Shown here: in pieces, positions 16,009 to 57,037 of the stretch
Position numbering within the stretch: the first letter of the stretch is position 1
Layout: each line of letters begins with the position of its first letter
Assembly: GCA_001820175.1 (NCBI GenBank)
Contig: MHOT01000018.1
Span: forward strand, 15,401-73,703
Direction of reading: 5' to 3'
DNA: 58,303 nt
From: Candidatus Staskawiczbacteria bacterium RIFCSPHIGHO2_02_FULL_42_22
GTDB lineage: Bacteria; Patescibacteriota; Minisyncoccia; Minisyncoccales; Staskawiczbacteraceae
Notes under the pieces: generated by a model
Told to the model about the DNA's origin: nothing
The model's input: the letters and a program-made list of their open reading frames with translations, nothing else
The model's database searches: none
Made by a program: the position numbers and the translations under genes

Positions 16009-16285
16009 TAGACCTGTTGCGTATTAAGGATTTACTGCAAATTGCATATTTCGGCCACAAATTTGCTATACCTAGTATAATGTGTCGCTCGTTCGGAAAG
16101 GAATAATTGCGATTTTTCCTTTCCTCTCTCGCTTAGCACATTATAATTTTTCGGTCAAGATGTGGGTAAATTTGTAGCAACAAATTTCCCCATCTCCGGG
16201 CCTGGAGGCAAGCCGAAAAATTCTATCAAATTTCTGCCACAAAATCTTCAATTTTCGTAACAATCCTTAATACGCAACAGGTCTA
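16009..16285. mobile_element. Family A MITE-like palindromic element (277 bp; TIR TAGACCTGTTGCGTATTAAGGA)
   Basis: 22-bp perfect TIRs, no ORF, near-identical copies elsewhere in either orientation. Confidence 0.9.
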
Positions 16286-16348
16286 ATCTTTAAAATTAGA
16301 AGGCCTCGGCCTTCTTTTTTTTGCCTAATTTCGCCCGAGAAATTATTC

Positions 16349-16390
16349 ATTTTCCACAAATTTCCACGATCGTGGAAATTTGTGGAAAAT
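16349..16390. repeat. 42-bp perfect palindrome upstream of the PaaX-like gene
   Basis: ATTTTCCACAAATTTCCACGATCGTGGAAATTTGTGGAAAAT, ending 18 bp before the ATG. Confidence 0.95.
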
Positions 16391-16407
16391 AATGGTACAA
16401 TTTAAAT

Positions 16408-16998
16408 ATGAAAAAAACAAAACTCAGAAAAAAAATAAAAAGAGTCAAGAATACGAACAAAGAAACTCTGTCTAAAAAAATCTTATTATATCTTGGGGAA
16501 AAATCAAAAGAAATGTTAGATTTAAGCGTAAGGATTATGTTTGATTTTAAGAGTATTCGGTCGGAATTTGGAGTAAATTTGTATGGAAACTCTTATTATT
16601 TGCCTCGGGAATTTTATCGCTTAAAAAAGAGTCCTTATTTCTCTTATAGTCCTACCGAAGAAAAATTCTACCTTACAGAAAAGGGGCGCATTAAGATCAT
16701 AGAAAGTGTTCTAAGAAATAAAAAAATGAATCAAAAAAGGTGGGATGGTTTCTGGCGGGCGATTATTTTTGATATTCCCGAGGCAAGCCGAAACGACAGA
16801 GACTTTTTAAGAAAAGAATTGCGTTGGATTGGCTGCAAAGAAATACAAAAGAGCGTCTGGGTAACGCCTTTTGATTTTGAAAAGGAACTTATGGCAATTC
16901 TCACGTTATGGAAGCGGGATTTTAGAGGGAATATCCAATTTTTAAAAATAGAAAAAATATCTGGCGAAGAAGAAATAAAACAGTATTTTAACATATAG
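16408..16998 (+). CDS. PaaX-like / Cas2-like-fold putative regulator
   Basis: FYLTEKGR wing motif, then WDGFWRAIIFDIPEASRNDRDFLRKELRWIGCKEIQKSVWVTP, typical of PaaX C-terminal/Cas2-like CPR proteins. Confidence 0.8.
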   Translation: MKKTKLRKKIKRVKNTNKETLSKKILLYLGEKSKEMLDLSVRIMFDFKSIRSEFGVNLYGNSYYLPREFYRLKKSPYFSYSPTEEKFYLTEKGRIKIIESVLRNKKMNQKRWDGFWRAIIFDIPEASRNDRDFLRKELRWIGCKEIQKSVWVTPFDFEKELMAILTLWKRDFRGNIQFLKIEKISGEEEIKQYFNI

Positions 16999-17036
16999 CC
17001 ATAACTTCATTAATCTCGATTATTTTATTTAAATTT

Positions 17037-17078
17037 ATTTTCCACAAATTTCCACGATCGTGGAAATTTGTGGAAAAT
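17037..17078. repeat. 42-bp perfect palindrome downstream of the PaaX-like gene
   Basis: Identical to 16349-16390. Confidence 0.95.
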
Positions 17079-17242
17079 GGAAATTTCAGCGGCATTTCTT
17101 TTATCGCCCTCCGCATCTTTCTTTAGTGGATAGCCGTGGGTAGCATGGATAGATAGAAACGTATGCTAGAACGTATGATTGAAATAATACCTAAAAAAAT
17201 GTACAATCAAGTGCAACCATAAAACATGCGCAACTATAAAAT

Positions 17243-20122
17243 ATGAAACTCGATGTTATTAAAATTCGCGGGGCCAGGGTGCATAACTTAAAAAATATTG
17301 ACCTGGACATCCCCAAAAATAAATTGGTGGTGATTACCGGGCTTTCGGGCAGCGGTAAATCATCATTAGCATTTGATACGTTGTATGCCGAAGGCCAGAG
17401 GCGCTATGTGGAAAGTTTATCGGCTTATGCCCGGCAATTTTTGGGGGTTATGGATAAGCCCGACGTTGATAAAATAGAAGGCATCAGTCCGGCTATTTCT
17501 ATTGACCAGCGCAAGTCAGTGCACAATCCCCGTAGTACCGTGGGGACTACCACGGAAATTTATGACTACCTGCGGCTTTTGTTTGCGCGTATCGGCAAGC
17601 CCCATTGCCCGAATTGCGGCAAACTAATTTCAAAGCAAACCGTGGATCAAATTGTTGACCAGGTATTAACCATTAAAGAAGGCGCGGAAATTTCAATACT
17701 GGGCCCCGTTATACGAGGAAAAAAGGGTGAACACACCGCAGTTTTGCAAGAAATTCAGCGGGCGGGTTTTGTGCGGGTAAGAATTGATAAAGATATGTAT
17801 CTAATAGAAGAAGCACTGCAAAAGCTACTAGATAAGCAAAAAAAACATGACATTGAAGCCGTTGTTGATCGGTTGGTATTGGTAAATGACTTGGATAGGT
17901 CTCGGTTAGTGGATTCCCTGGAAACCGCTTTAAAGTTAGGAAAAGGCATTGTCATACTTAATACCCAATACAAACCACCTAATACTAAAATTAAATCAGA
18001 AGATTTAATTTTTAGCGAACACTTCGCCTGTGAGGATTGCGGCATTTCCCTGGCCGAACTTGAACCCCGCATGTTTTCGTTTAATAATCCGTATGGCGCT
18101 TGCCCCGAATGCACGGGTCTTGGAGAAAAATTGGAGGTTTCGGCTGACTTGGTTATGCCCAATAAAAATTTGACGCTGGCTGAAGGCGCTATTTTTGCCT
18201 GGTCGAATGCCAGCCATAAAGTGGGTCGGCAGGGGTATTATCATTGGAATCTTTCGGAATTGGCACGTGCATACCACTTTTCTTTAGATGTGCCGGTCAA
18301 GAATTTACCCCCAAAAATTATTGATATTATCTTGCATGGAGATAATGCGGGTTTTGAGGGAGTCATTGCAAACTTGGAAAGACGATACCATGAAACTGAT
18401 TCCGAATGGACGCGTCAGGAAATTGACCAGTATATGGTAATTAAACAGTGCCCCATGTGTCAGGGAAAACGATTAAAACCGGAAGTGCTGGCGATTACCG
18501 TAGCCAGTGTTTCTGTTGATGTTATTGTCAAGATGCCCGTCGATGATTTGCAGAAATTTTTTTCCGCCTTGCCGAAACAACTGAGTGCTAATGATGTAAA
18601 AATCAGCACGCCGATTACCAAAGAAATTAATGATCGGCTTCAATTTTTGGTTGATGTGGGACTCGGGTATTTGAATTTAGACAGAAAGGCGGTTACCTTA
18701 GCGGGGGGAGAAGAACAACGGATACGCCTGGCCACCCAAATTGGATCAAAATTATCCGGAGTGCTATATATTTTAGACGAACCGTCAATTGGATTGCACG
18801 CGCGCGACCAGCACCGGTTAATTCATACGTTATTGCAACTGCGCGATTTAGGAAACACGGTGATTGTGGTAGAACACGATCCACAGACCATGATGGCGTC
18901 GGATTGGATTGTGGATATTGGGCCCGGTGCCGGCAAGCACGGGGGACGAGTTATCTTCCAGGGAACACCAGGGGCACTCCTCAAATCTAATACATTGACC
19001 GGACAATATCTATCAGGGAGGAAAACAGTTTCTGGAGAGGTATTAAGTAGTAAGTATAAAGTATTAAGCAAAGGCCAAAAAGTTGGTTTAAATACTAAAT
19101 ACCCAATACCAAATACCAAATACTTAACCGTCAAGGGTGCCAAAGAGCATAATTTAAAAAACATTGATGTGGCTTTTCCTTTGGGTAAATTTATTTGTGT
19201 GACCGGTGTTTCGGGCAGCGGCAAGTCGTCGCTTGTAAATGACATTCTGGCCCGCGCATTGCTAAAGCAATTTTACCGAGCAAAAGATGAACCTGGAATG
19301 CATACAAAAATTACCGGAACCGAACACATTAATAAGGTGGTCTTGGTTGACCAGTCGCCCATTGGTCGGACTCCGCGGTCAAACCCCGCAACTTATACTG
19401 GCGCATTTTCATTTATTCGTGATATTTTTACCCAAACGAAAGAATCGCGGATTCGCGGATATTTAGCGGGCCGTTTTAGTTTTAATGTAAAAGGCGGCCG
19501 GTGCGAGGCCTGTGAAGGACAGGGTACCAAAAAAGTAGAAATGTATTTTTTGCCGGATATTTATGTAGAATGCGAGGAGTGTCGCGGTAAGCGTTACAGC
19601 AAGGAGGTGCTGGAAATTACTTATAAAGATAAAAATATTGCCGACGTGCTCAAAATGACCATTGAAGAAGCCGGTGAGTTTTTCGAACATATCCCGGGGG
19701 TGTACGATAAAATGAAAACGTTAAAAGAGGTGGGGCTTTCTTACGTTGAACTCGGCCAGGCGGCCACTTCACTGTCGGGCGGAGAGGCCCAGCGGATAAA
19801 ACTGGCTACCGAACTTTCACGCCGCGACACCGGTAACACATTATATATTTTAGATGAACCAACCACCGGTTTGCACTTTGAAGATATTAAGAAACTGATT
19901 TCAGTATTAAGAAATTTGGTCGATAAAGGAAATACAGTATTAGTTATTGAACACAATATTTCGCTTATTGCTGTTTCGGATTGGATTATAGATTTAGGGC
20001 CAGAGGGAGGAGAAAAAGGTGGCGGGATTGTTGTCGAGGGAATTCCACAAGATATTGCAAAAAATAAAAAATCTTATACTGCCAAATTCTTAAGAGATGT
20101 TTTTTTTGGCAAGATTATATAA
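17243..20122 (+). CDS. uvrA: Excinuclease ABC subunit A
   Basis: [10 protein letters not shown], two Walker A motifs (GLSGSGKSS; GVSGSGKSS), zinc fingers, [12 protein letters not shown] and [12 protein letters not shown] signatures. Confidence 0.98.
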
Positions 20123-21290
20123 TTCTGTTATTTCTTTTAATAATATTTTTTTCTGCTTTTTTTAAATCTCTTAATCTTTTTGAATGCTTTAATAAAGGTT
20201 TTAACATTTTCAATAATTTTAATAAAGGTTTCTTTTTGCTTATGTATAAGTACCAGTGGTTTTGCTTATACATGGTTCCATCGTTTTTGACGTGACCTTT
20301 TTTAACTCGAATTTTTGGCGGATTGCAAGGGATCCCTATTTCTAATAAATTCTTGTAAATATACCACAGGATGTTTTTATCGTAAGAAGCTAGCGTAAAA
20401 CCGGCAACATTGCTTTTTGCGATAAAGATAGCACCTTCTGCATCTGTGTAACCTGCTAAAAAAGATAAAAAGTGGGCCTTATTTTTTTTAACCCAATCGG
20501 GCATCGAATCTTTTTTCAATAAAAGGAAGTCGAAAGACCTATTTAATAAAACTGTAAAAACTCTGTTGTTATCTTCCCTTGCCTTACTTACCCATACATG
20601 GCCATATTTCTCAAACAATTTTTTAAATAAATGAATTTGTTGGATTTTTGTAGAGGTTGTGCTAATTACAATTAATTTTTTAGAGGGTAATAGTTTTGCA
20701 TAAAGATCCCCCAATTTAAAGCCGATTAGATAAGCTTTTTCATGTAAATCATTTGAGAAATCATATTTTTTATACTTAGTATGATAAAAATCAGCACTTC
20801 TAGTTTTTAATCCATAATCTTTCATTAATTTTGAGACATAGACATGGTGGGTATTAAGTTTTTTCGCAATTTGTTTTTGGGTTAATTTGTTCTTATAGTA
20901 AAGATTAACCAACACCGTCCTCTTTATTCTTTTTTCCTGCCAACCAAGCTTTATCGATTCCAATATTGTTCTAAGGGGAATATCTTGTTTGATCATTTCT
21001 CTCCTTATAGTTTCTCTAGAATAATGTAATTTTTTAGCAATGACAATGATAGATAATTTATCTTCAAGGTATAACTTCTTGAGAATTCCTTTTGGTATAG
21101 ATATTATTTTCTTTTGACTCGCTATTCTTACTGCTACTTTTTGTTTTCTTGGAGTAATACCAAATTTTTCCATTCTTTTGTTTATGGTGGTTATATTACA
21201 ATTTAATAGAGAAGCGATTTCTTTTCTAGAAAGAAGATTTTGATTATAGAGTTCCTCAAGAATTTTTTTAGAAATATCATTTCTTCTCAT
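20115..21290 (-). CDS. Free-standing LAGLIDADG-type endonuclease-like protein with N-terminal HTH repeats
   Basis: [12 protein letters not shown] and [14 protein letters not shown] motifs; three L.xLY...LS..xIA..L units in the N-terminal half. Confidence 0.8.
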
Positions 21291-21378
21291 AGCTTTATTG
21301 TAACATAATACAGAGTTAATAAAAATAGTATAAAGTATTATTTATTTTAACCGGCGCTGTTTTTTAACTCCCTGATTT

Positions 21379-21461
21379 CGTCATTGCGAGAAGTCCCGAG
21401 CCGCAGCGAGGGGCGACGAAGCAATCTAAAAGTGGAGGAGATTGCTTCGGTTGCGGCCTCG
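21379..21461. repeat. Family D palindrome, right arm truncated
   Basis: CGTCATTGCGAG...GCGACGAAGCAATCT...AGATTGCTTCGG...CCTCG. Confidence 0.85.
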
Positions 21462-21475
21462 AAAAGCGATATCTA

Positions 21476-21504
21476 TTGACAAAGGTTTTTAAATTTTATA
21501 GATT
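21476..21504 (+). promoter_or_regulatory. sigma70-type promoter of groES-groEL
   Basis: TTGACA-17 bp-TAGATT. Confidence 0.6.
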
Positions 21505-21617
21505 GTAGTATCTTAACGAATTTTTAATTTCCAAATTTTTAATTTTTAAATAATGCGTTAATGTTTAAATTTTGAGAAATTAAGAAATTATTTACAAAAT
21601 TAAAAATTACAAAAATT

Positions 21618-21908
21618 ATGATAATAAAACCCCTTGCAGATCACATTTTAATAGAACCCATTAAGGAAGAAGAAAAAACCAAGTCGGGAATTTTTTTGCC
21701 CGACACCGCTCAAAAAGAAAAACCCGAACAAGGGTTGGTTATTGCCGTGGGCCAGGGCAGGAAAACCGATGATGGAAAAATAGTTCCCGTGTCGGTAAAA
21801 GCAGGGGACAAAGTGCTGTTTACCAAGTACGGCCCCAATGAAATAAAAATTGATGGGAAAGAATATTTAATTGCCCAAGAAAGCGATATTCTAGCAATTA
21901 TTGAATAA
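21618..21908 (+). CDS. groES: Co-chaperonin GroES
   Basis: IKPLADHILIEP, KTKSGIFLPDTAQKEKPEQGLVIAVG, ESDILAII. Confidence 0.98.
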   Translation: MIIKPLADHILIEPIKEEEKTKSGIFLPDTAQKEKPEQGLVIAVGQGRKTDDGKIVPVSVKAGDKVLFTKYGPNEIKIDGKEYLIAQESDILAIIE

Positions 21909-21912
21909 GGAA

Positions 21913-22020
21913 TGCGATGCTAATATACTAATTCATACTAATCATACCAATACGATACTAATCCGTCGTGCGTAGACTTTTATTAGTATTATTAGTATGC
22001 ATTCGTATATTGGCATCGCA
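21913..22020. repeat. Family F (ATACTAA-unit) palindrome between groES and groEL
   Basis: TGCGATGCTAATAT...ATATTGGCATCGCA; inverted relative at 36389-36477. Confidence 0.85.
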
Positions 22021-22024
22021 CTAA

Positions 22025-23668
<1,644 letters not shown>

Positions 23669-23719
23669 GGTCAGTAGGTACTGGGTAGTGAGTAGTTGGT
23701 AGTGAGTAGAAAAAAATAG

Positions 23720-23752
23720 AAAAAATCTTCCTTGATTCAAGGAAGATTTTTT
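23720..23752 (+). terminator. Intrinsic (likely bidirectional) terminator after groEL
   Basis: AAAAAATCTTCCTTGA-T-TCAAGGAAGATTTTTT. Confidence 0.8.
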
Positions 23753-23808
23753 GTTACATTAAGTGCAGAGTATAAGCAGCCCTTTGTAAAATATCCAGGA
23801 GGCGACCT

Positions 23809-24279
23809 ATGGCTAAGGAAATTCTTGGTTTGGGTATACGGGGCATTATTGCTTCAAGTATGTGCGATGACCAAGGGAAATATGAGGAAATTCCTGGTGC
23901 TTTTAAAATGTTGGCAAGGTTGCAACGGGAGAGATTTTCTGAAGGCATCTTTCTTGTTTCTTATGCCTGGGGGGAAACGCATCCAAAAATACTTCATTGG
24001 TTGTTTGATCATATATTCCATAAAGTAACCGGTATACCGGCTGGTAATGTTTACCTATTTCGTCACAAGGTTCAAGAAGTCGCAATCTGCCGCGAATTAG
24101 AAATTACCCATTTTATTTCCGATAGCACAGAACTTCTCGTAGCCCTTAATGACGCAGGTATAGAAAATCTATATCTTTTTCATGGGCCTGATCAAGAGCA
24201 GTCCTGTTCTGGAAGTATCTTGCGCCATGTCACGCAGGTTACCTCTTGGCAGGAAATTGCCAAAAACCTGCTTGGTTAG
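23809..24279 (+). CDS. HAD-fold-like hypothetical protein, catalytic motifs degenerate
   Basis: Resembles HAD-like proteins (PGAF..L..L, FLVS, WL, ICRELEITHFI), but the DxD and DD positions read GLG and SD. Confidence 0.55.
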   Translation: MAKEILGLGIRGIIASSMCDDQGKYEEIPGAFKMLARLQRERFSEGIFLVSYAWGETHPKILHWLFDHIFHKVTGIPAGNVYLFRHKVQEVAICRELEITHFISDSTELLVALNDAGIENLYLFHGPDQEQSCSGSILRHVTQVTSWQEIAKNLLG

Positions 24280-36484: not shown

Positions 36485-36679
36485 ATGGAACCGGAAACCC
36501 AAAAAATTATATCATTGCTTGAAGATCTAGTACAATCACAAAAGGCCAACCAGGCCGCTATGGTAGAAATGACTCGCAAGGATAAAAAATATAAAAAAGT
36601 TATCGGAGGATTGCTTATTGTTGTGTTAGTGTCTTTTTTGTATGCAATCGTGATATCATTGTTGTATTATTATAAATAG
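36485..36679 (+). CDS. Small C-terminally anchored hypothetical protein
   Basis: 64 aa with one TM; stop codon TAG coincides with the first bases of a family A element. Confidence 0.6.
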   Translation: MEPETQKIISLLEDLVQSQKANQAAMVEMTRKDKKYKKVIGGLLIVVLVSFLYAIVISLLYYYK

Positions 36680-36954
36680 ACCTGTTGCGTATTAAGGATT
36701 GTCGCGAAAATTACAGATTTTGAGCTGGAAATTTGATAGAATTTTTCGGCTTGCCCTCTGGGCCCGGAGATGGGGAAATTTGTTGCTACAAATTTACCCA
36801 CATCTTGACCGAAAAATTATAATTTGCTAAGCGAGAGAGAAAAAGAAGAATAGCAATTATTCTTTTTCGAACGAGCGACAAATTATACTAGGTATAGCAA
36901 ATTTCTGGCCAAAATATGCAATTTGCAGCAAATCCTTAATACGCAACAGGTCTA
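36677..36954. mobile_element. Family A element (278 bp), opposite orientation to the 16009 copy
   Basis: Same TIRs and internal modules. Confidence 0.9.
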
Positions 36955-40867: not shown

Positions 40868-41144
40868 TAGACCTGTTGCGTATTAAGGATTGTCGCGAAA
40901 ATTGAAGATTTTGGATCAGAAATTTGATAGAATTTTTCGGCTTGCCCATAGGCCCGGAGATGGGGAAATTTGTTGCTACAAATTTGCCCACATCTTGACC
41001 GAAAAATTATAATGTGCTAAGCGAGAGAGAAAAAGAAGAATATCAATTATTCTTTTTCGAACGAGCGACACATTATACTAGGTATAGCAAATTTCTGGCC
41101 AAAATATGCAATTTGCAGTAAATCCTTAATACGCAACAGGTCTA
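40868..41144. mobile_element. Family A element (277 bp) between dnaG and rpoD
   Basis: TIRs and modules as above. Confidence 0.9.
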
Positions 41145-41170
41145 ATAATACAAACAAGTAAAAGTTTAAA

Positions 41171-41343
41171 AACCTTGAGTTACGAAATGCTTTCGCGGGA
41201 TTTTCTCTAAATTCCAGAGCGAAAAATTGATAGAAATCCGAGGCATAGCGCGCTATGCCGAGGATTTATAGCAATTTTGCAGCTGGAATTTAGAGAAAAG
41301 ACCCGAAAAGTCCTTTAAAACGGGCATTTCGTAATTCAAGGTT
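41171..41343. mobile_element. Family B palindromic element (TIR AACCTTGAGTTACGAAATGC)
   Basis: 20-bp TIR with one G.T; relatives at 57584-57757 and 57825-58000. Confidence 0.85.
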
Positions 41344-41358
41344 TAAAAAACAATACAC

Positions 41359-48549: not shown

Positions 48550-48555
48550 TCTTGT

Positions 48556-48978: not shown

Positions 48979-49098
48979 TAAAATCAACTATACCATAAAA
49001 TTCGCGGTCGCGAATTTTATGGTATCAGTGCACTAGTGACAATATTCTAAAAATATCATACGATGAGACAGGTTCTTTAACCTATCAAGGAGGTGGTT

Positions 49099-49839
49099 AT
49101 GCGCCAGTCGGTCAAGCGTGCGGTCCTTAGGCAGTTGAAAAAACGAGAAAAGAAAACCCTTATTAATGCCGATCGCATAAACCAATTTACAGTACTCATT
49201 CCAATGGGCCACAGAAAATATCGGTGGTCGGCCCGGCCAGAAAAATTGTATGGAGATGCCAGAAATATTCGGGGTGATGCTTCAAAGATCTGGGGTGATT
49301 GTTCTCATATTTCTGGCAATGTTTCCGAAATTAGGGGTAATGTGAGCCGTATCCGGGGAGATGTTACCAATCTTTCCGGAGATGTAAGCCGCTTATTTGG
49401 CGATGTCACCGATATACACGGAGATGTTACCAATCTTTCGGGAGACGCCAGTGGATTATGGGGAGACGTCACGCGGCTCCGGGGAAACATCACCGCTATC
49501 ATTGGAGATGTAAGCAACCTCCGAGGCGATTGTTCAGGAATTGAGGGCGATATCTCTAAAATTACCGGAGATTTGTCGGGAATTTTAGGGGATTTTTCCC
49601 ACATCACCGGCGATGTCACCAATATTTACGGTGATGTAACTCACATCCAGGGAGATGTTTCCTGTATTTCTGGCGATGTTTCAGGGCTGCGAGGCAACAT
49701 TTCTTCTATTTGCGGTGATGTCACCAAGATTTGGGGAGATGTTTCAGGTATTAAAGGTGACGTTTCGGAAATTTGCGGCGACATGACGGGAATTAAGGCA
49801 ATCGCCCAAGAAATACTGCTGGTGCTTCAGAATCGTTAA
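49099..49839 (+). CDS. Heptad-repeat protein, 26 x G[DN]xxxxx
   Basis: AAGGAGGT SD; perfectly phased 7-aa units at 49252-49797. Confidence 0.85.
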   Translation: MRQSVKRAVLRQLKKREKKTLINADRINQFTVLIPMGHRKYRWSARPEKLYGDARNIRGDASKIWGDCSHISGNVSEIRGNVSRIRGDVTNLSGDVSRLFGDVTDIHGDVTNLSGDASGLWGDVTRLRGNITAIIGDVSNLRGDCSGIEGDISKITGDLSGILGDFSHITGDVTNIYGDVTHIQGDVSCISGDVSGLRGNISSICGDVTKIWGDVSGIKGDVSEICGDMTGIKAIAQEILLVLQNR

Positions 49840-49938
49840 TGCAACTGTTTGACTGAGGTGTTCAAACGCCTATCATCAGGGCCCTTTGGTTTGCCAAGGG
49901 GTCTTTTTTAAATTCACTGCGACCTGAACTTGGGCGCG

Positions 49939-50334
49939 CTATATTTCCATTACCAAACTTGCTATTAGGACTGCCAAAGATAGTATAAATATAAATGCAG
50001 AGTTAAATCGTGCCTTAGAGGTGAGGGTGGTTTTAGTTAAATACACCAGAGCTAATTTTTTATCTTCTTCTATATCGCTTGCTCGCAGCGCTTGAACTAA
50101 TCGAAGGTTTTTTACCAGGTTAGCTCTTTTTGTTTCAATGTGGGTCCGGTGGCCGAAGTATAAAACAAATCCAATGGTTCCGATATACCAGGCCACTTTA
50201 ATTCAAAAGGGATCCAGTAAAAAAATAATCCGGTAGGCGATGGTGGCTGCGAGGCCAGATAAAAAGAAAAACCAGCGCCAAAAAGGGGCGCTCGCCTCAA
50301 TTTTTTCCCCTGCGGTATCTTTTTTTGATTTCAT
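49939..50334 (-). pseudogene. Membrane-protein gene interrupted by one in-frame TGA (codon 44)
   Basis: Single frame from ATG 50334: ...GLAATIAYRIIFLLDPF*IKVAWYIGTIGFVLYFGHR...; stop at 50203-50205. Confidence 0.6.
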
Positions 50335-51034
50335 TTTTTGAACGTAAATAATATTTTCTTTTTTGGGGTGAGAATTTTTCAATGGCGTAACGCAGCATCG
50401 TTCTTGGCATGCTCCGGTAGTGTTTATTTAAAAACATTATTTCCGTTTTTGGTGAGCGTTTTCCTACTTCGCGCAACATCCATCCGGTTGCTTTGTGGAT
50501 TAAATCATGTTGGTCACCAAGCAAAATGTTTGCAATTTTTAAGGTTTCGTTAAATTTGTTTTTCTTGATGAAATGAAATGTTGCAACGATTGCCATTCTC
50601 CGTTCCCATAGATTTTTTGACCGCGCCATCTTTAAAAGTATTTTTTTGCTTCTACCAAAAAAACAATCCCCCAATATATATTCTGCTGAAGTATCAACCA
50701 GATCCCAGTTATTAACGCATTTTTTATTTTTCAGATAAGAATGAACAATTTCTTTTTTAATTTTTTGGTCGCCCTTTTCATATTTGGCGACCAGAATTTC
50801 AAGGCCCACAAATCGGTATTCGTGAATAGGGCTTTTTAGTAGTTTCTCAACATCGTTTAAGGGTAAAGACACAAATGCATGAGATATGTTTCGCTGCACA
50901 GGAACCGTAATGCCTAAAAATATATCGCCGTAACCGTACTGGCCCTCGCCGGTCTTAAAAAACCGCGACGAAGTTTTAGCCCTCTTGGGATCAGCCAATT
51001 TTTTAAGCTCATCAATTAATGCTTTTATTTTCAT
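50297..51034 (-). CDS. AlkD-like DNA alkylation repair protein
   Basis: FFKTG.GQYG.GD.FLGITVP, NNWDLVD, LWERRMAIV, DLIHKA.GWMLREVGK, MPRTMLRYAIEK. Confidence 0.9.
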   Translation of the reverse strand: MKIKALIDELKKLADPKRAKTSSRFFKTGEGQYGYGDIFLGITVPVQRNISHAFVSLPLNDVEKLLKSPIHEYRFVGLEILVAKYEKGDQKIKKEIVHSYLKNKKCVNNWDLVDTSAEYILGDCFFGRSKKILLKMARSKNLWERRMAIVATFHFIKKNKFNETLKIANILLGDQHDLIHKATGWMLREVGKRSPKTEIMFLNKHYRSMPRTMLRYAIEKFSPQKRKYYLRSKNEIKKRYRRGKN

Positions 51035-51077
51035 ATGGTTGAATTGTTTAAAAATATCCTAAACCAAAAAATCTTCG

Positions 51078-52187
51078 TTACCTGGTAGTTTCTTTAAGCT
51101 CGATTTTTTCTTTTACCCTCTTTACCTGGAATGTTATTCTGCCCAGCACTTGTCCGCGTTCATTTTCCACGTATATTCGCCACGCCCCCGCTTCCAGGTC
51201 GCTTTCAAAAGAATATCCCTTGTAACCCTCTTTCCGTCCGCCGACAATGGCAAATGACAGCAATCCTCGGTCTACCCAGTCCTTTTTGATTGGGTCGTAA
51301 TATTGCCAATGGTGAACGATGGTAGTTTGCAATTTTGCGGGAGCAAAAATAGCCGTGTATAAATATATTTTTTCGCCCGACTTTGTGTGTACCGTTTGGC
51401 CGGGAATCAATCGTTGCCATAACGTTTCCGGTTCGCCTTGCATAATGTAAGATCCGCGGGAAACCATGATGCCATGGTAAAGCCCTGCTTCCCTAAGCGA
51501 TAGGGGAATTGGCGGAATAATGTTGGTAAAATATAATACATTCATTAATAGTAAGACGGCAAAAATTCCAATGAGCATTTTTTGTTTTACGCGCCTTTCT
51601 TTTATTGGCAGCAAAAACACAATAAATGGGTAAAAAATACCAATGCTCAAAACGCCGGCCAAAAGGAAAACCCAGGACCCAAGCGAGTTAAACATAAACG
51701 GCAGCATCAAAGAAAGCAACGACAGGGTGGTAAAAAAATAAATGCCGATTTGGATGATCGGATTTAAAAAATAATGCCGGAAAATATCGTTTGATGCCAT
51801 TAGCACCACCACAATAGTGATAATCGGCCAACTGACCGACAGGGTTCCGGAAAGCCAGTAGAAAACCAGGGAACTTCCCAGGAGCGCGCCGAAGGTAAAT
51901 TGGATTGCCAGGGGGGCAAACAGCCGGAGGTACTTTAATTTTTGAGGCAGTGCGCCGGCATCAAAGAAGTGTATAAAAACAATGGTGGCACCTAAAACCA
52001 GCCAGTATAGCAGAAGTAGAGCAAAAGTAGTGGTGAGGCGAATACTGGTAAAGGTGAAATAATCAATCAAAAAACCCACCACCAAAGTGACTGGCATCAG
52101 CAACCTTTCGTAGCGCATATAAAAGGATTTAATTTGCCGGTAGTGCGATGAAAAATCTAAGAGTCGTTGCATATGATTCAAATTCAT
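51078..52187 (-). CDS. Multi-TM protein with a C-terminal DUF2914-like domain
   Basis: About 7 hydrophobic helices; YTAIFAP..L.T.I.H.W, GGRKEGYKGYS, GAWRIYVENERGQVLGR. Confidence 0.8.
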   Translation of the reverse strand: MNLNHMQRLLDFSSHYRQIKSFYMRYERLLMPVTLVVGFLIDYFTFTSIRLTTTFALLLLYWLVLGATIVFIHFFDAGALPQKLKYLRLFAPLAIQFTFGALLGSSLVFYWLSGTLSVSWPIITIVVVLMASNDIFRHYFLNPIIQIGIYFFTTLSLLSLMLPFMFNSLGSWVFLLAGVLSIGIFYPFIVFLLPIKERRVKQKMLIGIFAVLLLMNVLYFTNIIPPIPLSLREAGLYHGIMVSRGSYIMQGEPETLWQRLIPGQTVHTKSGEKIYLYTAIFAPAKLQTTIVHHWQYYDPIKKDWVDRGLLSFAIVGGRKEGYKGYSFESDLEAGAWRIYVENERGQVLGRITFQVKRVKEKIELKETTR

Positions 52188-52210
52188 TATACCAAATAAA
52201 ATTTAAACAA

Positions 52211-52370
52211 TAGACCTGTTGCGTATTAAGGATTGTTACGAAAATTGAAGATTTTGAGCCAGAAATTTGATAGAATTTTTCGGCTTGCCTCCAGGCCCGC
52301 CGAAAAATTATAGCAAATTTCTGGCCGAAATATGCAATTTGCAGTAAATCCTTAATACGCAACAGGTCTA
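52211..52370. mobile_element. Family A short form (160 bp; lacks both internal modules)
   Basis: Same TIRs; equals the long form minus the 42-bp and 75-bp inserts. Confidence 0.9.
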
Positions 52371-52417
52371 ATAAAAATACCTGCAAAAATATAAAATATC
52401 TTTGCAGGTACTGGTTA

Positions 52418-52840
52418 TTAGTGGGTCGTTGCTATTTTGGCGCGGCGCTGTCTTTGATAGCATACCCAACAAAGCGGTGGATGAGATGTTGTAATAATCT
52501 TCGTCTTTTTGCACTGGTTGCAACATCCAACCCTACTTTTGTTGTGGCAGTTCGAGCAGATGGGACCGTCTTCAGTCCGCTTTCGCACTTGCTTGACCTC
52601 CTTGCACCGAGAGCACTGCTCGCGTTTGGAAGGGTCCTTGTTGTAGCAGTTCGAGCAGACGGGACCATCTTTAGTCCGCTCCGCCACTCGCTTGACCTCC
52701 TTGCACCGAGAGCACTGCTCGCGTTTGGAAGGATCGTGGTAACGATCCTTGTCGTAGCAGCTCGGGCAGATCAATTTTTTGGTCTTGCGACTGCGATGAA
52801 CGGTTTTCCATTTCTTGCAAACATTGCAAATGTCCAGCAT
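52418..52840 (-). CDS. Cys-rich repeat (multi zinc-finger-like) protein
   Basis: Eight CxxC motifs; 99-bp tandem duplication; AGAGGAGGT SD. Confidence 0.8.
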   Translation of the reverse strand: MLDICNVCKKWKTVHRSRKTKKLICPSCYDKDRYHDPSKREQCSRCKEVKRVAERTKDGPVCSNCYNKDPSKREQCSRCKEVKQVRKRTEDGPICSNCHNKSRVGCCNQCKKTKIITTSHPPLCWVCYQRQRRAKIATTH

Positions 52841-52931
52841 TTATCACCTCCTCTTGGTTGAAGTTTTGTGAAAGAACGAGTTGATCAATGTTACTTTAAA
52901 CTATTATTTATTATTTGTCAAAAAACGGTGG

Positions 52932-53235
52932 TATAGAACAAACATTATCACTTCGCACTCCAATTCTTGACGGATTTGCCAATCTTGGGCAGTTTTCGCA
53001 AAAAATATGTTTGCCGTAGCTACGGCTACGCCAAACATATTTTTTGGAGACGGGGCGAATTTGTTGTGACAAATTACGCCTCGCGTCTTGACTCCAAGCC
53101 GCCCAATATTCGAGGATAGCGAAGGGAGTAAATATGCCGCAGTATATTTACTCCCAAGCGACGCAGAATATATGCTTATCATATATTGCCAAACCGCCGG
53201 CGACTTTAGTGCAAAGTGATAATGTTTGTTCTATA
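52932..53235. mobile_element. Family C long form (304 bp) with two inserted hairpin modules
   Basis: Inverted copy of 46405-46587 plus inserts at 53047-53091 and 53111-53187. Confidence 0.9.
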
Positions 53236-53264
53236 GATTCCGTGTCAATCTTTTGTAAAGTTTA

Positions 53265-53430
53265 ACGAGATTGCTTCGTCGCCCTTCGCTGTCCAGACAC
53301 GAGGCGTAATTTGTCGCAACAAATTTAACCGTCTCTGGCTCAGGGCTCTAAAGTCGCGAGATTTTTCTCGCCTTTCGGGCGGGAAAAATCTGGCGACTTT
53401 ACGTAATGACGGTGGGGCGCGAGGGGTTAC
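53265..53430. repeat. Family D right arm with two inserted modules and GGGGTTAC shell end
   Basis: Modules at 53292-53335 and 53349-53401. Confidence 0.8.
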
Positions 53431-53476
53431 AAATTAAAAAATTGATATCATGCAATAAAAATTGTACAATGAACAC

Positions 53477-54646
53477 ATGAAAATAGAAAACATCTCTTTG
53501 GGGATATGGATACCCCGGGCATCAATGCATCTAAAAGAAATGTATCACTTTTTCAGTGGAGAAAAGATGCCGATCGCGGGTCTTGGCGCCCAGAAATTAG
53601 CAAAATTAAGAGAATCATTGGGAATTATAAAAGTTGATTTTATCACCAAGGCCGAGTTTGACGAAGTCCATGTGCTATGCCAAGCGATCTATATTACCAT
53701 ATCGTCAGAAGGGACCATTATTTTGCAATTAAGGAAAGATGACAAAGGGGATTTGGCTTTTGAAAATGCGGCAATGCTCGAGCATTTTTTTATTGAAAAA
53801 CTTTCTCCGGCGGTTAATTATCTTTTTAGTTTGGGGGCGCCTTTGCCCAAGGAATTGCAGAATATACGAGAGGCGTATCCCACCATTGTCATCGTAAAAG
53901 ATGCTTTTGAACAAGAACTAAATCAATTTATTAAAACCCAAAAGATTGAAATCTATTCCAGGGATATTTCTGAAAAATTGGATTTCTTTTTCGGGGAAAA
54001 AACTAGCATTATTAATGTGAAGCATGACGCGGTTCCTAAAGATATTTTGCTGCAAGAGATGATATTTCTAAAGGAATTTCCCATGCAGCTTAAAAATTAC
54101 CTTGCGGTACACCGGATGGTATGGGAAAAAGTAGATAACATCAGGGAAGTAAAAAGCATTGCATACAAGGATTTTACCCGCATCAGGGAGCAAATGAACG
54201 GTTTCCTAAAAACACTTTCACTCATGAAAGCCCGACTGGCGCAAATGGAGGATATTATAGAAACCAAAAAGGAAATAAACAATGCGATGTCTCAAGAAGG
54301 GTTGAAAGATATCAATATCCATAGAATTAATAATTTCATCGGGGACGTCAAATATGTTAAGGATTTATGGGAAATGACCATTGACTATGTCAAAGATACT
54401 TTAAATTTGATAGAATCAGTGTCGCGAGAAAATATCCAGCGAGAACTGAGCGCATTGAAGTTCGTTGCCTTAATCGGCGCCATTACCAGTTTCTTTGGCA
54501 TGAATATTGCATTTCCCTGGGAAGACCGTTGGGATGCGATTTTTTTGAGTTCCCTGGCCGTCATTGGTATTATTATTTTTGTTTCATTTACCTTCTATTA
54601 TTTTTTAAAGATATTTATTTACAACAGAAAATTTAACATGAAGTAG
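53477..54646 (+). CDS. CorA-like divalent cation transporter (divergent)
   Basis: Long helical region followed by two C-terminal TMs with the GMN signature (FFGMNI). Confidence 0.6.
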   Translation: MKIENISLGIWIPRASMHLKEMYHFFSGEKMPIAGLGAQKLAKLRESLGIIKVDFITKAEFDEVHVLCQAIYITISSEGTIILQLRKDDKGDLAFENAAMLEHFFIEKLSPAVNYLFSLGAPLPKELQNIREAYPTIVIVKDAFEQELNQFIKTQKIEIYSRDISEKLDFFFGEKTSIINVKHDAVPKDILLQEMIFLKEFPMQLKNYLAVHRMVWEKVDNIREVKSIAYKDFTRIREQMNGFLKTLSLMKARLAQMEDIIETKKEINNAMSQEGLKDINIHRINNFIGDVKYVKDLWEMTIDYVKDTLNLIESVSRENIQRELSALKFVALIGAITSFFGMNIAFPWEDRWDAIFLSSLAVIGIIIFVSFTFYYFLKIFIYNRKFNMK

Positions 54647-54650
54647 ATAT

Positions 54651-54971
54651 TAGACCTGTTGCGTATTAAGGATTTGCTCGAGACGCGAGGGTTACCGGCT
54701 CAGCCGGAACCCCCGTCTGTAGCAAATTGCATATTTTGGCCAGAAATTTGCTATACCTAGTATAATGTGTCGCTCGTTCGGAAAGGAATAATTGCGATTT
54801 TTCCTTTCCTCTCTCGCTTAGCACATTATAATTTTTCGGTCAAGATGTGGGTAAATTTGTAGCAACAAATTTCCCCATCTCCGGGCCCTCTAGGCAAGCC
54901 GAAAAATTCTATCAAATTTCTGATCCAAAATCTTCAATTTTCGTAACAATCCTTAATACGCAACAGGTCTA
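54651..54971. mobile_element. Family A element (321 bp) with an extra 43-bp hairpin
   Basis: Long form plus insert at ~54678-54721. Confidence 0.9.
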
Positions 54972-55029
54972 TTCAAAATATGGCAAAGGTCGAGTTATAA
55001 TATGCAAAAATATATTTAAATTTAAAAAA

Positions 55030-55190
55030 TAGACCTGTTGCGTAATAAGATTATATGCGAAACGCAGCAATTTTTAGGTAAAAAATCAGAAAAATCTGGA
55101 GGTTTGCCCAAGGGCAAGCCGACAGATTTTTATGGTTTTTGAACGAAAATTGCAAGTTGCAGCGTAAATCCTTATTACGCAACAGGTCTA
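55030..55190. mobile_element. Divergent family A element (161 bp)
   Basis: TIR TAGACCTGTTGCGTAATAAG / CTTATTACGCAACAGGTCTA; different but still palindromic interior. Confidence 0.85.
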
Positions 55191-55195
55191 ATATC

Positions 55196-56674
55196 ATGGA
55201 AAAAATAAATAAGTTATTGAACATTAAAAACATTTTATTGCTTTCAGTGTTGGTTTTTTCTTTGCTGGTATTTGTTAATCCCGGTATTCTTTTTGGACAA
55301 GCTGCGCCGCAAAAAGAAATCTGCAATGGTGTGGACGACAATGGCGATGGACGGGTTGATGAAGGGGTAAATTGCGACCATTATCTAAGTTATCTTATCG
55401 ACAAATCTATTAATCCGGTTAACGTTGTTTTGCGCGATCAATTTATTCAACCCACGGATTTTCAGGCGGTTTCCATTGAGCGGCTCTTTAATCCGGCGGT
55501 AAAAACTCACGGAGGCATAAAATTCAAAGCAAGCAGACCAGACCTTCACTACTTGGCCTATAGAGTCAAAACCCCTGCTACATTCACGCCGCGCTCCGTG
55601 ATTATAGAAAACCAATTTGAGCGTAATGTTATATCAGTCACCAATCCTCGGTACTTATTGACTCCAACCGGTAAACGGAAAATAGGCATTACCGACCAAA
55701 CACTTTCTTTAATGCCCGTATCAGCGGCTAAGAAATTACTTGAAGCAGTTGCGCCATCGATTCCGAAAAATGCCAATCATTACCTTTGCTATGATATAGA
55801 GCCCTACGATGTTTCTTTGGCGGCGTCTGTGAAAGATCAATTCCAAAATAGGGGATTTGAAGTGGTCCGGGCGCGTTATTTTTGCAACCCCGTAGAAAAA
55901 ATGCATAATGGAAAGGTGAGTGAGATTATTGATAGAAATAACCATTTGACCTGTTATGAAGTGATTCCCCATAACAAGGTGAACCGAAAAGTGGTGACCC
56001 GCGATCAATTTGGGGCGAAATTACAGACCGCAATTAGGACGGAAGAAATCTGTGTTCCAACCATTAAAACCCACATAGATGAACCCGTCTGCGTCCAGCC
56101 CGATGATCAGGGTACGGCCGTTATTTTTGCCAGTGACAAAAAATTCCAAACCACCGACGGCCACTTGGTTGTTATTCAACCATCAATGGGATCAAATGGC
56201 CTGACGGCCGACGGCATCCTCATGAGTGGTCCCGATACGGTTATTAATCGAGGTGGCAGTCCATCTGAAGGGGAAACATATACATTTGAAACCGAAATAC
56301 TCCAAATGTCGCTTTCAAGCGGACGTGTTTTGAATGTTCCCATGAACGGGCAAATAACCACAGAGCCGCGTACGCCCGGCGAGGCAATTCAGTCCTTTGA
56401 TACTGAAATGTTGCAACTGCAAGGGCAATTACCTCCAGGCGACCCTGACTTTGATTTGCTGCGCATTACCGCAGGGAGCGGCTTTGGCCTGCCAAGCCCT
56501 GGCCACACGACGCTCACGCGTAGCGGCACCAAGTACTGGCATGTGGACAGCTTTTTTGACATCACCTACCGCATTGATTTTGTCGGCGCTCCTGGCGGAG
56601 CATACGCGGGTATGAGCGGCTCAACCACCGCCACCATCAGAATGCAGGGCTCTTGCTCAATGCCGAATTCATAA
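55196..56674 (+). CDS. Secreted multidomain protein
   Basis: Signal peptide; EICNGVDDNGDGRVDE motif; repeated HY/HL-x-CY and (N/D)QF units; distinct C-terminal domain. Confidence 0.8.
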   Translation: MEKINKLLNIKNILLLSVLVFSLLVFVNPGILFGQAAPQKEICNGVDDNGDGRVDEGVNCDHYLSYLIDKSINPVNVVLRDQFIQPTDFQAVSIERLFNPAVKTHGGIKFKASRPDLHYLAYRVKTPATFTPRSVIIENQFERNVISVTNPRYLLTPTGKRKIGITDQTLSLMPVSAAKKLLEAVAPSIPKNANHYLCYDIEPYDVSLAASVKDQFQNRGFEVVRARYFCNPVEKMHNGKVSEIIDRNNHLTCYEVIPHNKVNRKVVTRDQFGAKLQTAIRTEEICVPTIKTHIDEPVCVQPDDQGTAVIFASDKKFQTTDGHLVVIQPSMGSNGLTADGILMSGPDTVINRGGSPSEGETYTFETEILQMSLSSGRVLNVPMNGQITTEPRTPGEAIQSFDTEMLQLQGQLPPGDPDFDLLRITAGSGFGLPSPGHTTLTRSGTKYWHVDSFFDITYRIDFVGAPGGAYAGMSGSTTATIRMQGSCSMPNS

Positions 56675-56716
56675 TGGTTTATCGCCAATAGTATCGATAA
56701 AATTAATAAAGGATAC

Positions 56717-56956
56717 CAGTGCCTCACTAATATAATTTTGAACCCTGGTTCAAAATTATATTAGGGCGCTTCCGTAAATACCTTCCCCAAAATTAGGTTC
56801 AATGCGCCCTGAATATCAGTACTGTAATTGAGCAAAATCTTGAGCCCTACCTTGGGTAGGGCGAAGGACTTTGCGATTGAGTAGTGCTGATAGTCAGGGA
56901 TGCGGTGGGCGTAAGATGGGGAAGCTATTTACGGAAGCGCCCTTAGTGAGGCACTG
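56717..56956 (+). ncRNA. Candidate rod-shaped structured RNA
   Basis: Nested inverted repeats with several G.U-compatible pairs on the + strand and a central unpaired bubble. Confidence 0.5.
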
Positions 56957-56992
56957 ACTCGAGGCACAGACTTCTTGAGTAATCCTGTGCAA

Positions 56993-57037
56993 TAGATCTG
57001 TTGCACAATATGTTTTGCATATTTCGCAACAGGTCTA
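56993..57037. mobile_element. Minimal family A relic (45 bp)
   Basis: TAGATCTGTTGC...GCAACAGGTCTA. Confidence 0.75.

What the first reader, a model, noticed from the sequence alone, without database searches (positions are those of the whole stretch)
16009..57037. Family A: seven copies from 45 to 321 bp that grow by whole-hairpin steps and show compensatory mutations
Seen: copies at 16009 (277 bp), 36677 (278), 40868 (277), 52211 (160), 54651 (321), 55030 (161) and 56993 (45). Long = short + 42 bp + 75 bp; longest = long + 43 bp. Compensatory pairs: GGAAAGG/CCTTTCC vs GAAAAAG/CTTTTTC (two pairs); TAATGTG/CACATTA vs TAATTTG/CAAATTA; TIR GTATTAAG/CTTAATAC vs GTAATAAG/CTTATTAC. The 55030 copy matches the short form in length and fold but not in interior sequence. 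Terminal TA may be a target duplication, as in IS630/Tc1 or IS5-ISL2-type elements (family not established). Inference: selection acts on secondary structure, which suggests a transcribed or ssDNA-folded function.
Basis: partly seen in the sequence, partly recalled or inferred. Interest (0 to 1): 0.78.

Follow-up and report, generated by a model that had tools for sequence, protein, structure and literature searches.

The report
Hairpin mini-transposons of an IS5-type element
The seven repeats are copies of a small non-coding jumping element (a MITE) in a tiny groundwater bacterium, and I found the roughly 1-kb transposase-carrying parent with the same ends in related samples, so the element is an ordinary kind, though unusually modular.

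Summary
All seven copies, their sizes, the arithmetic 160 + 75 + 42 (+43) and the listed compensatory pairs are in the sequence.

Family A is a MITE family.
- The true ends are AGACC...GGTCT.
- The genome (a roughly 95% complete, 821-kb Parcubacteria/Staskawiczbacteria MAG) holds 55 such elements, 1.2% of its DNA.

Autonomous partners exist.
- Two insertion sequences of 1,046 and 1,062 bp lie on metagenome contigs. One has both ends identical to family A over 23-25 bp; the other matches well at one end only.
- A 1,100-bp one with the sister "B" ends lies in a congener.
- Each encodes a DDE_Tnp_4 (IS5/PIF-Harbinger type) transposase of about 300 aa.
- None is present in this assembly.

The MITE interior is not derived from the IS. 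It is an 89-bp palindromic core that also sits in MITE shells making a 5-bp duplication, in several CPR lineages.

Hairpin pairing in the core and in module X covaries strongly and favours one strand. Selection on fold is therefore plausible but unproven, because recombination and template switching are live alternatives.

Verdict: new member of a known kind, moderate interest.

The parts
16010..16284 (-). Long MITE-A copy (275 bp between AGACC and GGTCT); 3-bp duplication AAT at 16007-16009 and 16285-16287. It lies between a stop codon (15983) and a terminator-like hairpin (about 16297-16321).
16067..16141 (-). Module X (75-bp hairpin block, allele GTG/CAC + GGAAAGG/CCTTTCC)
16155..16196 (-). 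Module Y (42-bp hairpin TCAAGATGTGGGTAAATTTGTAGCAACAAATTTCCCCATCTC), no flanking duplication
36678..36953 (+). Long MITE-A copy (276 bp), duplication AAT; Y at 36767-36808, X at 36818-36892 (allele TTG/CAA + GAAAAAG/CTTTTTC)
40869..41143 (+). Long MITE-A copy (275 bp), duplication AAT; Y at 40957-40998, X at 41008-41082 (allele GTG/CAC + GAAAAAG/CTTTTTC)
52212..52369 (+). Short MITE-A copy (158 bp), duplication AAT. It folds end to end into one hairpin (-87.2 kcal/mol, z -15.8).
52249..52337 (+). Palindromic core cassette (about 89 bp) inside the short copy. It has invariant AAATTTGATAGAATTTT ... AAAATTATAGCAAATTT around a covarying apical stem, and is 90% identical to the core of the E-type element at 57824-58001.
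54652..54970 (-). Longest MITE-A copy (319 bp), duplication ATT; Z at 54679-54721, X at 54752-54826, Y at 54840-54881. Z, X and Y fold as side hairpins off the main stem.
55031..55189 (.). MITE with GTAATAAG-type ends and a second kind of interior (159 bp), duplication AAT. It ends 6 nt before the probable start codon ATG 55196.
56994..57036 (.). Mini-element (43 bp: the two ends plus a small loop), duplication AAT. It ends 9 nt before ATG 57046.
41170..41344 (.). E-family MITE (ends ACCTTGAGTTACGAAA...) that carries the same kind of core; flanked by TTAAAA on both sides
57582..57759 (.). E-family MITE with the same kind of core
57824..58001 (.). E-family MITE whose core is 90% identical to that of the short A copy; 5-bp duplication TTGTA

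Best explanation
[quoted passage not shown] They are moved in trans by the transposase of an IS5/PIF-Harbinger-type insertion sequence of about 1.05 kb that has the same ends.

Proposed mechanism:
- The transposase has an N-terminal helix-turn-helix and a DDE_Tnp_4 catalytic domain.
- It binds the roughly 24-bp terminal inverted repeats and cuts at AGACC/GGTCT.
- It joins the element into an A-N-T site with a 3-base stagger. Repair of the stagger leaves the 3-bp duplication.

The sister B ends (AGACCTGTCCCTAAATAA) have their own, 39-41% identical transposase.

The MITE interior was not cut out of the IS. It is an 89-bp palindromic core cassette that also occurs in MITE families with other ends.

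The size classes arise from three small hairpin modules (X 75 bp, Y 42 bp, Z 43 bp). Each is present or absent at a fixed site. They are re-assorted, like the A and B ends, by recombination between copies.

Shown: the ends, the duplication, the partner ISs, the module anatomy, the recombinants and the covariation.
Inferred: that these transposases actually move the MITEs, and why the hairpin is kept.
For: - Ends and copies: 12 end matches in the window against 0 in shuffles. There are 55 AGACC-type elements in the genome.
- Duplication in the genome: the flanking 3-mers are identical in 44 of 55 elements. Shuffled partners give a mean of 14.3 and a maximum of 24, with 0 of 20,000 shuffles reaching 44; the random genome rate is 2.1%.
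- Duplication elsewhere: 44 of 52 elements on independent metagenome contigs show it (ATT 20, AAT 19).
- The non-A-N-T duplications CTT, TTT and AAC show that all three bases are duplicated.
- Partner L184:932-1993 has ends identical to MITE-A for 23-25 bp. Its 305-aa ORF matches PF13359 DDE_Tnp_4 (E 6.6e-22), PF13613 HTH_Tnp_4, and NF033581 (IS5 family) below its cut-off.
- Partner L167:789-1834 has a 62% identical transposase and duplication AAT/AAT.
- In congener G020, L219:1261-2360 has B-type ends, duplication ACT/ACT and a DDE_Tnp_4 transposase.
- D142, D195 and E263 are invariant in the three proteins.
- IS5 and PIF/Harbinger elements are reported to make 3-bp duplications in AT-rich targets (PMC4122938).
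- Distribution in the genus is patchy: the exact 13-mer end occurs in 11 of 25 congeners, with copy numbers from 1 to 45.
- Recombination: hybrid A/B ends, and a crossover inside the 54651 copy in a strain that is otherwise 100% identical.
Against: - No transposase of this kind is in this assembly. Its only transposase genes are an IS630-type one with other ends and a decayed IS5-like one.
- The hosts of the L184 and L167 contigs are unknown. The L167 flanks are only 50-60% identical in protein to this genome.
- The L184 copy has an imperfect duplication (ACT/ATT).
- In L167 only the right end matches family A well; the left end diverges after 12 bases.
- No partner was found for the GTAATAAG-type ends of the 55030 copy.
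- The plain MITE model does not explain why the interior core is shared with families that make a 5-bp duplication. It also does not explain why wobble pairs pile up on one strand.
Confidence: 0.85

Rival explanations
1. The hairpin itself is under selection. The core (and perhaps X) would work as a folded single strand, either an RNA made from one particular strand or single-stranded DNA, and the MITE shells merely carry it around. This adds to the MITE reading rather than replacing it.
For: - Core alignment of 38 distinct sequences from several CPR lineages: 15 of 25 pairs change on both sides, and 108 such cells against 32.6 +/- 4.5 in shuffles (0 of 500 shuffles reach it). Slid controls drop from 91% to 31-51% paired.
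- Module X: 5 of 24 pairs are compensatory, with 0-3 of 500 shuffles as high.
- The mismatches A.G and G.A in GATAG/TATAGC are invariant, and a TT/CC internal loop persists while neighbouring stems covary.
- On the GATAGAAT-first strand there are 49 G.T cells at 10 pairs, against 7 A.C cells at 4 pairs.
- That strand folds better in 69 of 76 unique elements, in all three end families.
Against: - There is no orientation bias relative to flanking genes (23 co-oriented against 20 anti-oriented). Read-through transcripts would therefore carry the favoured strand only half the time.
- There is no Rfam match.
- Copies are related by descent, so cell counts overstate the number of independent events.
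Confidence: 0.3
2. The pairing is kept without selection on function. Palindromic DNA is repaired arm against arm by template switching during replication, and copies exchange blocks by recombination. Changes on both sides therefore arise in one step and spread as haplotypes.
For: - Template switching is documented to create and maintain perfect hairpin stems, with apparent compensatory changes arising in one event (PMC8794818).
- Recombinants are seen here: A/B hybrid ends, a crossover within the 54651 copy, and the unmatched X haplotype TTG/CAC in C17 and L206, which looks like a cross between the two matched alleles.
- All four X/Y combinations occur in both A and B shells.
Against: - Arm-against-arm copying should erase mismatches. 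Yet the same mismatches (A.G/G.A, TT/CC) and the same left-arm/right-arm differences persist across families and lineages.
- It does not predict the strand asymmetry of wobble pairs.
Confidence: 0.3
3. The core is a cassette of two face-to-face promoters. TGATAGAAT on one strand and TGCTATAAT on the other are extended -10 boxes that fire across the apex and out of the element.
For: - Both boxes fit TGnTATAAT and are the most conserved letters of the element.
- Ordinary genes of this genome carry the same kind of box just before their start codons, for example C1:9300 and C4:14119.
Against: - There is no orientation bias towards downstream genes.
- The consensus scan finds no good -35 partner in the short form.
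- Module X splits the TGCTATAAT box in long copies.
- There are no expression data.
Confidence: 0.12
4. One reading: an IS630/Tc1-type MITE that duplicates TA, moved by the IS630-family transposase present in this genome.
For: - One intact DDE_3 transposase lies on contig C30.
- Its ends begin TAGCCTGTT, a little like TAGACCTGTT.
Against: - The base between the flanking A and T is the same on both sides (A/A, T/T, G/G, C/C), which TA duplication cannot give.
- The C30 ends share only about 9 bases with family A.
- G020 has 28 family-A ends and no DDE_3 gene.
Confidence: 0.02

Closest known systems
Tourist-type MITEs and their PIF/Harbinger or IS5-family parents (for example mPing with Ping/Pong in rice; recalled from my own knowledge, with PMC4122938 and PMC12730594 for the superfamily and its 3-bp duplication)
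   Same: - Short non-coding element with terminal inverted repeats.
- 3-bp duplication in an AT-rich target.
- Moved in trans by a DDE transposase of the IS5/PIF-Harbinger superfamily (Pfam DDE_Tnp_4).
- Parent and MITE share only the ends.
   Different: - The target consensus here is A-N-T (AAT/ATT) rather than TAA/TTA.
- The parent has a single ORF and no second Myb-like gene.
- The host is a CPR bacterium.
- The interior is a conserved palindromic cassette shared with other MITE families.
Correia repeat-enclosed elements (CREE/NEMIS) of Neisseria (PMC2649163, PMC2229807)
   Same: - Intergenic element of about 100-160 bp with inverted ends and a conserved core.
- Size classes that differ by an internal block.
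- Sub-types of the left and right ends that occur in mixed combinations.
- Sits inside operon spacers and close to start codons, so it is probably co-transcribed as a long hairpin.
- Contains a promoter-like box and an IHF-like box (WATCAANNNNTTR against TATCAAATTTTTA).
   Different: - Correia elements duplicate TA and have no known transposase. Here the duplication is 3 bp and parent ISs were found.
- RNase III cutting, IHF binding and promoter activity are shown for Correia elements and are untested here.
ERIC/IRU elements of enterobacteria (recalled from my own knowledge: 127-bp imperfect palindromes with longer forms made by insertions of about 70 bp at fixed internal sites)
   Same: An imperfect palindrome whose longer forms arise from blocks inserted at fixed internal positions; intergenic and transcribed with neighbouring genes.
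   Different: ERIC has no defined transposase partner. Here the inserted blocks are themselves hairpins that also occur in unrelated repeat families.
REP/REPIN elements with RAYT transposases
   Same: Abundant hairpin-forming intergenic repeats; nested and mosaic arrangements.
   Different: REPINs make no target duplication and depend on a Y1 (RAYT) transposase. No Y1 gene is in this genome, and a 3-bp duplication is present.

Membership tests
MITE (non-autonomous terminal-inverted-repeat transposon) | Terminal inverted repeats | tested here: met
   The ends are identical over 23-25 bp in six of seven window copies. All 55 genome copies were paired with at most 4 mismatches in 18.
MITE (non-autonomous terminal-inverted-repeat transposon) | Target-site duplication of fixed length | tested here: met
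   3 bp: 44 of 55 in the genome (shuffled partners 14.3 +/- 2.7, 0 of 20,000 reach 44) and 44 of 52 on other contigs.
MITE (non-autonomous terminal-inverted-repeat transposon) | Small, many dispersed copies, no transposase gene of its own | tested here: met
   Elements of 26-319 bp, 55 copies on 22 contigs, 1.2% of the genome. They are too short for a transposase.
MITE (non-autonomous terminal-inverted-repeat transposon) | An autonomous element with the same ends exists | tested here: met
   L184:932-1993, L167:789-1834 and L219:1261-2360 (B ends). None is in this assembly.
IS5 / PIF-Harbinger superfamily (for the parent IS) | DDE transposase of the DDE_Tnp_4 / DDE_Tnp_1 type with conserved D, D, E | tested here: met
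   PF13359 at E 6.6e-22, 1.7e-21 and 1.2e-25, all above the cut-off. D142, D195 and E263 are invariant in the three proteins. The triad was assigned by alignment only.
IS5 / PIF-Harbinger superfamily (for the parent IS) | 3-bp duplication in an AT-rich target | tested here: met
   the property of the family is taken from PMC4122938.
IS5 family, named subgroup (NCBIfam NF033581 transpos_IS5_4; ISL2-like) | Score above the curated equivalog cut-off | tested here: not met
   61.5 bits against a cut-off of 140. The subgroup is left open. That the ISL2 group targets A-N-T is my recollection and was not verified.
IS630 / Tc1-mariner MITE | TA duplication and a DDE_3 parent with the same ends | tested here: not met
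   The duplication is 3 bp. The only DDE_3 element (C30) has other ends.
REP / REPIN with RAYT, or IS200/IS605-derived palindromic elements | Y1 (HUH) transposase in the genome; insertion without duplication | tested here: not met
   No PF01797 match; a duplication is present.
Correia (CREE) elements | TA duplication; 26-bp Correia repeat; IHF binding and RNase III processing | tested here: not met
   Duplication and ends differ. Protein binding and RNA cutting are not testable with these tools. It may work like one in operon spacers.
Known structured RNA family (Rfam) | Match at the gathering score | tested here: not met
   Only a tRNA is found in the window. On the elements, only far sub-threshold hairpin look-alikes appear.

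The most novel reading that the evidence does not exclude
The 89-bp core may be an evolutionary unit of its own, an exchangeable palindromic cassette found across CPR lineages.
- It occurs in Staskawiczbacteria, Nomurabacteria, Kaiserbacteria and MAGs labelled Saccharibacteria.
- It has an invariant GAUAG/UAUAGC internal loop, covarying stems and wobble pairs on one strand only.
- It has been captured by at least two unrelated transposition systems, one making a 3-bp and one a 5-bp duplication.

It would then be either a functional single-stranded fold (RNA or DNA) or a DNA-bending and end-pairing module that makes any shell around it transpose better.

Modules Y, Z and W would be still smaller mobile hairpins that insert without duplication at fixed sites.
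Probability: 0.25. Interest if true: 0.7.

Novelty: new member of a known kind. Interest (0 to 1): 0.42.

Why it matters
- It gives CPR/Patescibacteria, whose mobile DNA is little described, a clean MITE-and-parent pair. I found no paper on MITEs in these phyla.
- The pair has defined ends, a defined target and a defined transposase, and it could be tested in E. coli.
- MITE copies mark a rearrangement breakpoint between near-identical strains.
- Copies sit 6-9 nt from start codons, so they probably shape operon transcripts in genomes with almost no spare DNA.
- The core shared between families with different duplication lengths is a tidy natural experiment on what a MITE interior is for.

Tried and rejected
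- IS630 as the mover: rejected on duplication length and ends.
- RAYT/Y1 transposase: none in the genome.
- DDE_Tnp_1 in the genome: only a decayed IS with other ends on C3.
- DDE_Tnp_1_2 in 36 relatives: none.
- IS630 homologues in the class: 4 of 401 genomes, unrelated to MITE load.
- Lone ends in relatives (11 loci): all were short elements with a diverged partner end.
- Long-range end pairs in the loci held before the metagenome scan: none was an IS. L082 is two MITEs bracketing two ordinary genes.
- Half-cores followed by a transposase gene: none.
- Viral contigs: no end or core match.
- A metagenome pattern built to exclude MITEs: no hit. The plain 20-mer then found the parents.
- Orientation bias: 21:8 among AGACC-type elements and 16:7 among core-bearing elements in this genome. 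It did not replicate elsewhere (7:13) and was dropped.
- Clean empty sites in congeners: coding DNA is only 65-70% identical, so spacers cannot be aligned.
- A parent for the E family: none found.
The count of structure pairs was used instead of R-scape.
Full report
**The observation.**
- The 23-nt end TAGACCTGTTGCGTATTAAGGAT, allowing up to 3 mismatches, matches 12 times in the window as six inverted pairs. Shuffles give none. The 45-bp copy is read directly.
- Aligning each copy to the short one gives exactly a 75-bp block (X) and a 42-bp block (Y) in the three long copies, and a further 43-bp block (Z) in the 54651 copy. The backbone is 150-157 of 160 identical.
- The listed compensatory pairs are all present.
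- The short copy folds end to end into one hairpin (-87.2 kcal/mol, z -15.8). In the longest copy X, Y and Z fold as side hairpins off that stem.

**The genome.** The window is contig C18:15401-73703 of an 821-kb, 30-contig MAG that is about 95% complete. Its congeners are named Candidatus Staskawiczbacteria, a Parcubacteria/CPR lineage from groundwater.
- The genome holds 55 elements with AGACC...GGTCT ends, 9.8 kb or 1.2% of the DNA.
- 21 have the A ends (AGACCTGTTGCGT), 18 have B ends (AGACCTGTCCCTA), and the rest fall into rarer types.
- Sizes run from 26 to 319 bp, with a main class at 158-160 bp.
- Elements with an A end on one side and a B end on the other exist.

**The duplication is 3 bp, not TA.**
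- The bases flanking AGACC...GGTCT are direct repeats of three: ATT, AAT, AGT, ACT, and also CTT, TTT, AAC, TAT and TAA.
- They are identical in 44 of 55 elements. Re-dealing the right flanks among elements gives 14.3 +/- 2.7, never more than 24, and 0 of 20,000 shuffles reach 44. The random rate in the genome is 2.1%.
- The same holds for 44 of 52 elements on independent metagenome contigs.
- A 3-bp duplication excludes IS630/Tc1. The single IS630-type element of this genome (contig C30) has other ends.

**The parent elements.** Searches of this genome and 36-60 relatives for DDE_3, Y1, DDE_Tnp_1 and DDE_Tnp_1_2 transposases found no partner. A scan of public metagenome contigs for the 20-nt end then gave 56 stretches.
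- L184:932-1993 (1,062 bp). Both ends are identical to MITE-A over 23-25 bp. It has one 305-aa ORF with PF13359 DDE_Tnp_4 (E 6.6e-22) and PF13613 HTH_Tnp_4. Its best NCBIfam match is an IS5-family model, below that model's cut-off.
- L167:789-1834 (1,046 bp). It encodes a 62% identical protein and is flanked by AAT/AAT. Its right end matches family A well; its left end diverges after 12 bases.
- L219:1261-2360 (1,100 bp), in congener G020, which carries 28 A-type ends. It has a 39-41% identical transposase between B-type ends and is flanked by ACT/ACT.
- Three acidic residues (D142, D195, E263) are invariant in the three proteins.
- IS5 and PIF/Harbinger elements are reported to make 3-bp duplications in AT-rich targets (PMC4122938).
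- No copy of the transposase is in this assembly.

Family A is therefore a MITE family of an IS5/PIF-Harbinger-type IS. The concerted differences between the ends of subfamilies are best read as co-evolution with their transposases.

**The interior does not come from the IS.** Beyond the ends, IS and MITE share nothing.
- The middle of the MITE is an 89-bp palindromic core (window 52249-52337).
- The core recurs at 90% identity inside elements with quite different ends, such as the E family at window 57824-58001.
- E-family elements (ends ACYKTGAATTACGAAA) make a duplication of about 5 bp. 34 of 55 have abutting repeats of 4-6 bp, against 2.6 in shuffled partners (0 of 5,000 shuffles reach 34). 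A different enzyme must move them.
- The core also occurs in other Staskawiczbacteria, in Nomurabacteria, in Kaiserbacteria and in several MAGs labelled Saccharibacteria.
- Its invariant letters are AAATTTGATAGAATTTT and AAAATTATAGCAAATTT. Between them lies an apical stem-loop of very variable sequence, with 52 distinct versions.

**The modules.**
- X and Y always sit at the same two sites of the core.
- All four combinations (none, X, Y, X+Y) occur with both A and B ends.
- X also occurs in E-family elements.
- Y also sits at the apex of an unrelated palindromic family, always just after TTT(A/C)GG.
- Y and Z have no flanking duplication. X is flanked by TATA on both sides, which fits either a duplication or loss by slippage.
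- A GC-rich 31-bp hairpin (W) sits in other copies.

**Recombination between copies is real.** A metagenome contig (L206) is 100% identical to window 54972-57437. Yet its version of the 54651 element lacks Z, differs at five sites in its left 120 bp, and has an unrelated left flank. That is a crossover inside the MITE. The unmatched X haplotype TTG/CAC in C17 and L206 looks like a cross between the two matched alleles.

**Is the fold selected?**
- In X, 5 of 24 pairs change on both sides, and 98% of cells pair. Only 0-3 of 500 shuffles reach these values.
- In the core, across 38 distinct sequences, 15 of 25 pairs change on both sides. There are 108 such cells against 32.6 +/- 4.5 in shuffles. 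Sliding the partner drops pairing from 91% to 31-51%.
- Two mismatches (A.G and G.A in GATAG/TATAGC) are invariant. A TT/CC internal loop persists while its neighbouring stems covary.
- On the strand that reads GATAGAAT first there are 49 G.T cells at 10 pairs, against 7 A.C cells at 4 pairs.
- That strand is the more stable fold in 69 of 76 unique elements (-67.5 against -59.7 kcal/mol), in all three end families.

These points favour a constraint on one folded strand. Against it:
- Orientation relative to flanking genes is even (23:20). A bias seen in this genome did not replicate elsewhere.
- Copies share ancestry, so counts are inflated.
- Template switching can produce matched changes in one step (PMC8794818).
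- No Rfam family matches.

**Context.**
- The elements lie in spacers, mostly between co-directional genes, at about the background frequency of such spacers.
- One lies between a stop codon and a terminator-like hairpin.
- Two end 6 and 9 nt before start codons.
- They are therefore probably transcribed with their neighbours, as Correia and ERIC elements are (PMC2649163, PMC2229807).

**Verdict.**
It is a transposon family of the IS5 type and not the IS630 type. The autonomous parent exists outside this assembly. The end changes are a matter of transposase binding. Selection on the interior fold is plausible but unproven.
- It is a new member of a known kind. The open oddity is a palindromic core shared by MITE families that use different transposition chemistry.

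Noticed in passing
window 41170-41344, 57582-57759, 57824-58001 (19 copies genome-wide): A second MITE family (E; ends ACYKTGAATTACGAAA) carries the same kind of core but makes a duplication of about 5 bp (34 of 55 against 2.6 expected). No parent IS was found.
   Followed up: partly
L206:2760-3115 against window 54600-55000: In a strain 100% identical downstream, the 54651 element lacks module Z, differs in its left part and has an unrelated left flank. This is a crossover inside the MITE, hence a rearrangement breakpoint between strains.
   Followed up: partly
G000 contig C30, about 1877-2985 (locus L001): An intact IS630-family insertion sequence (341-aa DDE_3 transposase, ends TAGCCTGTTAAAAACAAAATGTCGC, TA flanks). 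Homologues occur in only 4 of 401 genomes of the class.
   Followed up: partly
G000 C22:25554-25792, C13:57660-57900, C19:40380-40632: An unrelated palindromic family (ends AATGCGAATCTCGTTTGGCAA) has a Y-like module exactly at its apex, after TTTAGG. The 18-nt palindrome AATTTGT(A/C)GCAACAAATT occurs at about 20 further places.
   Followed up: no
window about 990-1080 and 1560-1660; also G000 C27:16406-16660, C3:1-90: GC-rich nested palindromic repeats containing CGTCATTGCGAGG ... CCTCGCAATGACG. One holds a sub-hairpin with the same stem as module Z but a different apex.
   Followed up: no
G000 C6:8110-8137 and 8675-8700: Two near-perfect 26-28-bp palindromes, TAGACCTGTGGACCG(A/G)TCCACAGGTCTA, bracket one small gene. 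They have no matching flanking repeats.
   Followed up: no
L082:4990-6190: Two direct copies of a MITE with nested B-type and F-type right ends bracket two ordinary genes (148 and 116 aa), between two paralogous membrane-protein genes. The arrangement resembles a composite transposon or a segmental duplication.
   Followed up: partly
window 1713-15590: A single open reading frame of 4,625 codons on the + strand, in a stretch of higher G+C (0.46-0.55) than the rest of the window.
   Followed up: no
G000 C3:1040-1985: A decayed IS5-like element (DDE_Tnp_1 match with an internal stop and frame breaks) with ends GGCGCTGTTCGGAAACC.
   Followed up: partly
window 55189-55198 and 57036-57048: Two elements end 6 and 9 nt before probable start codons (ATG 55196, ATG 57046). 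The terminal CAGGTCT may therefore lie where a ribosome-binding site would be.
   Followed up: no
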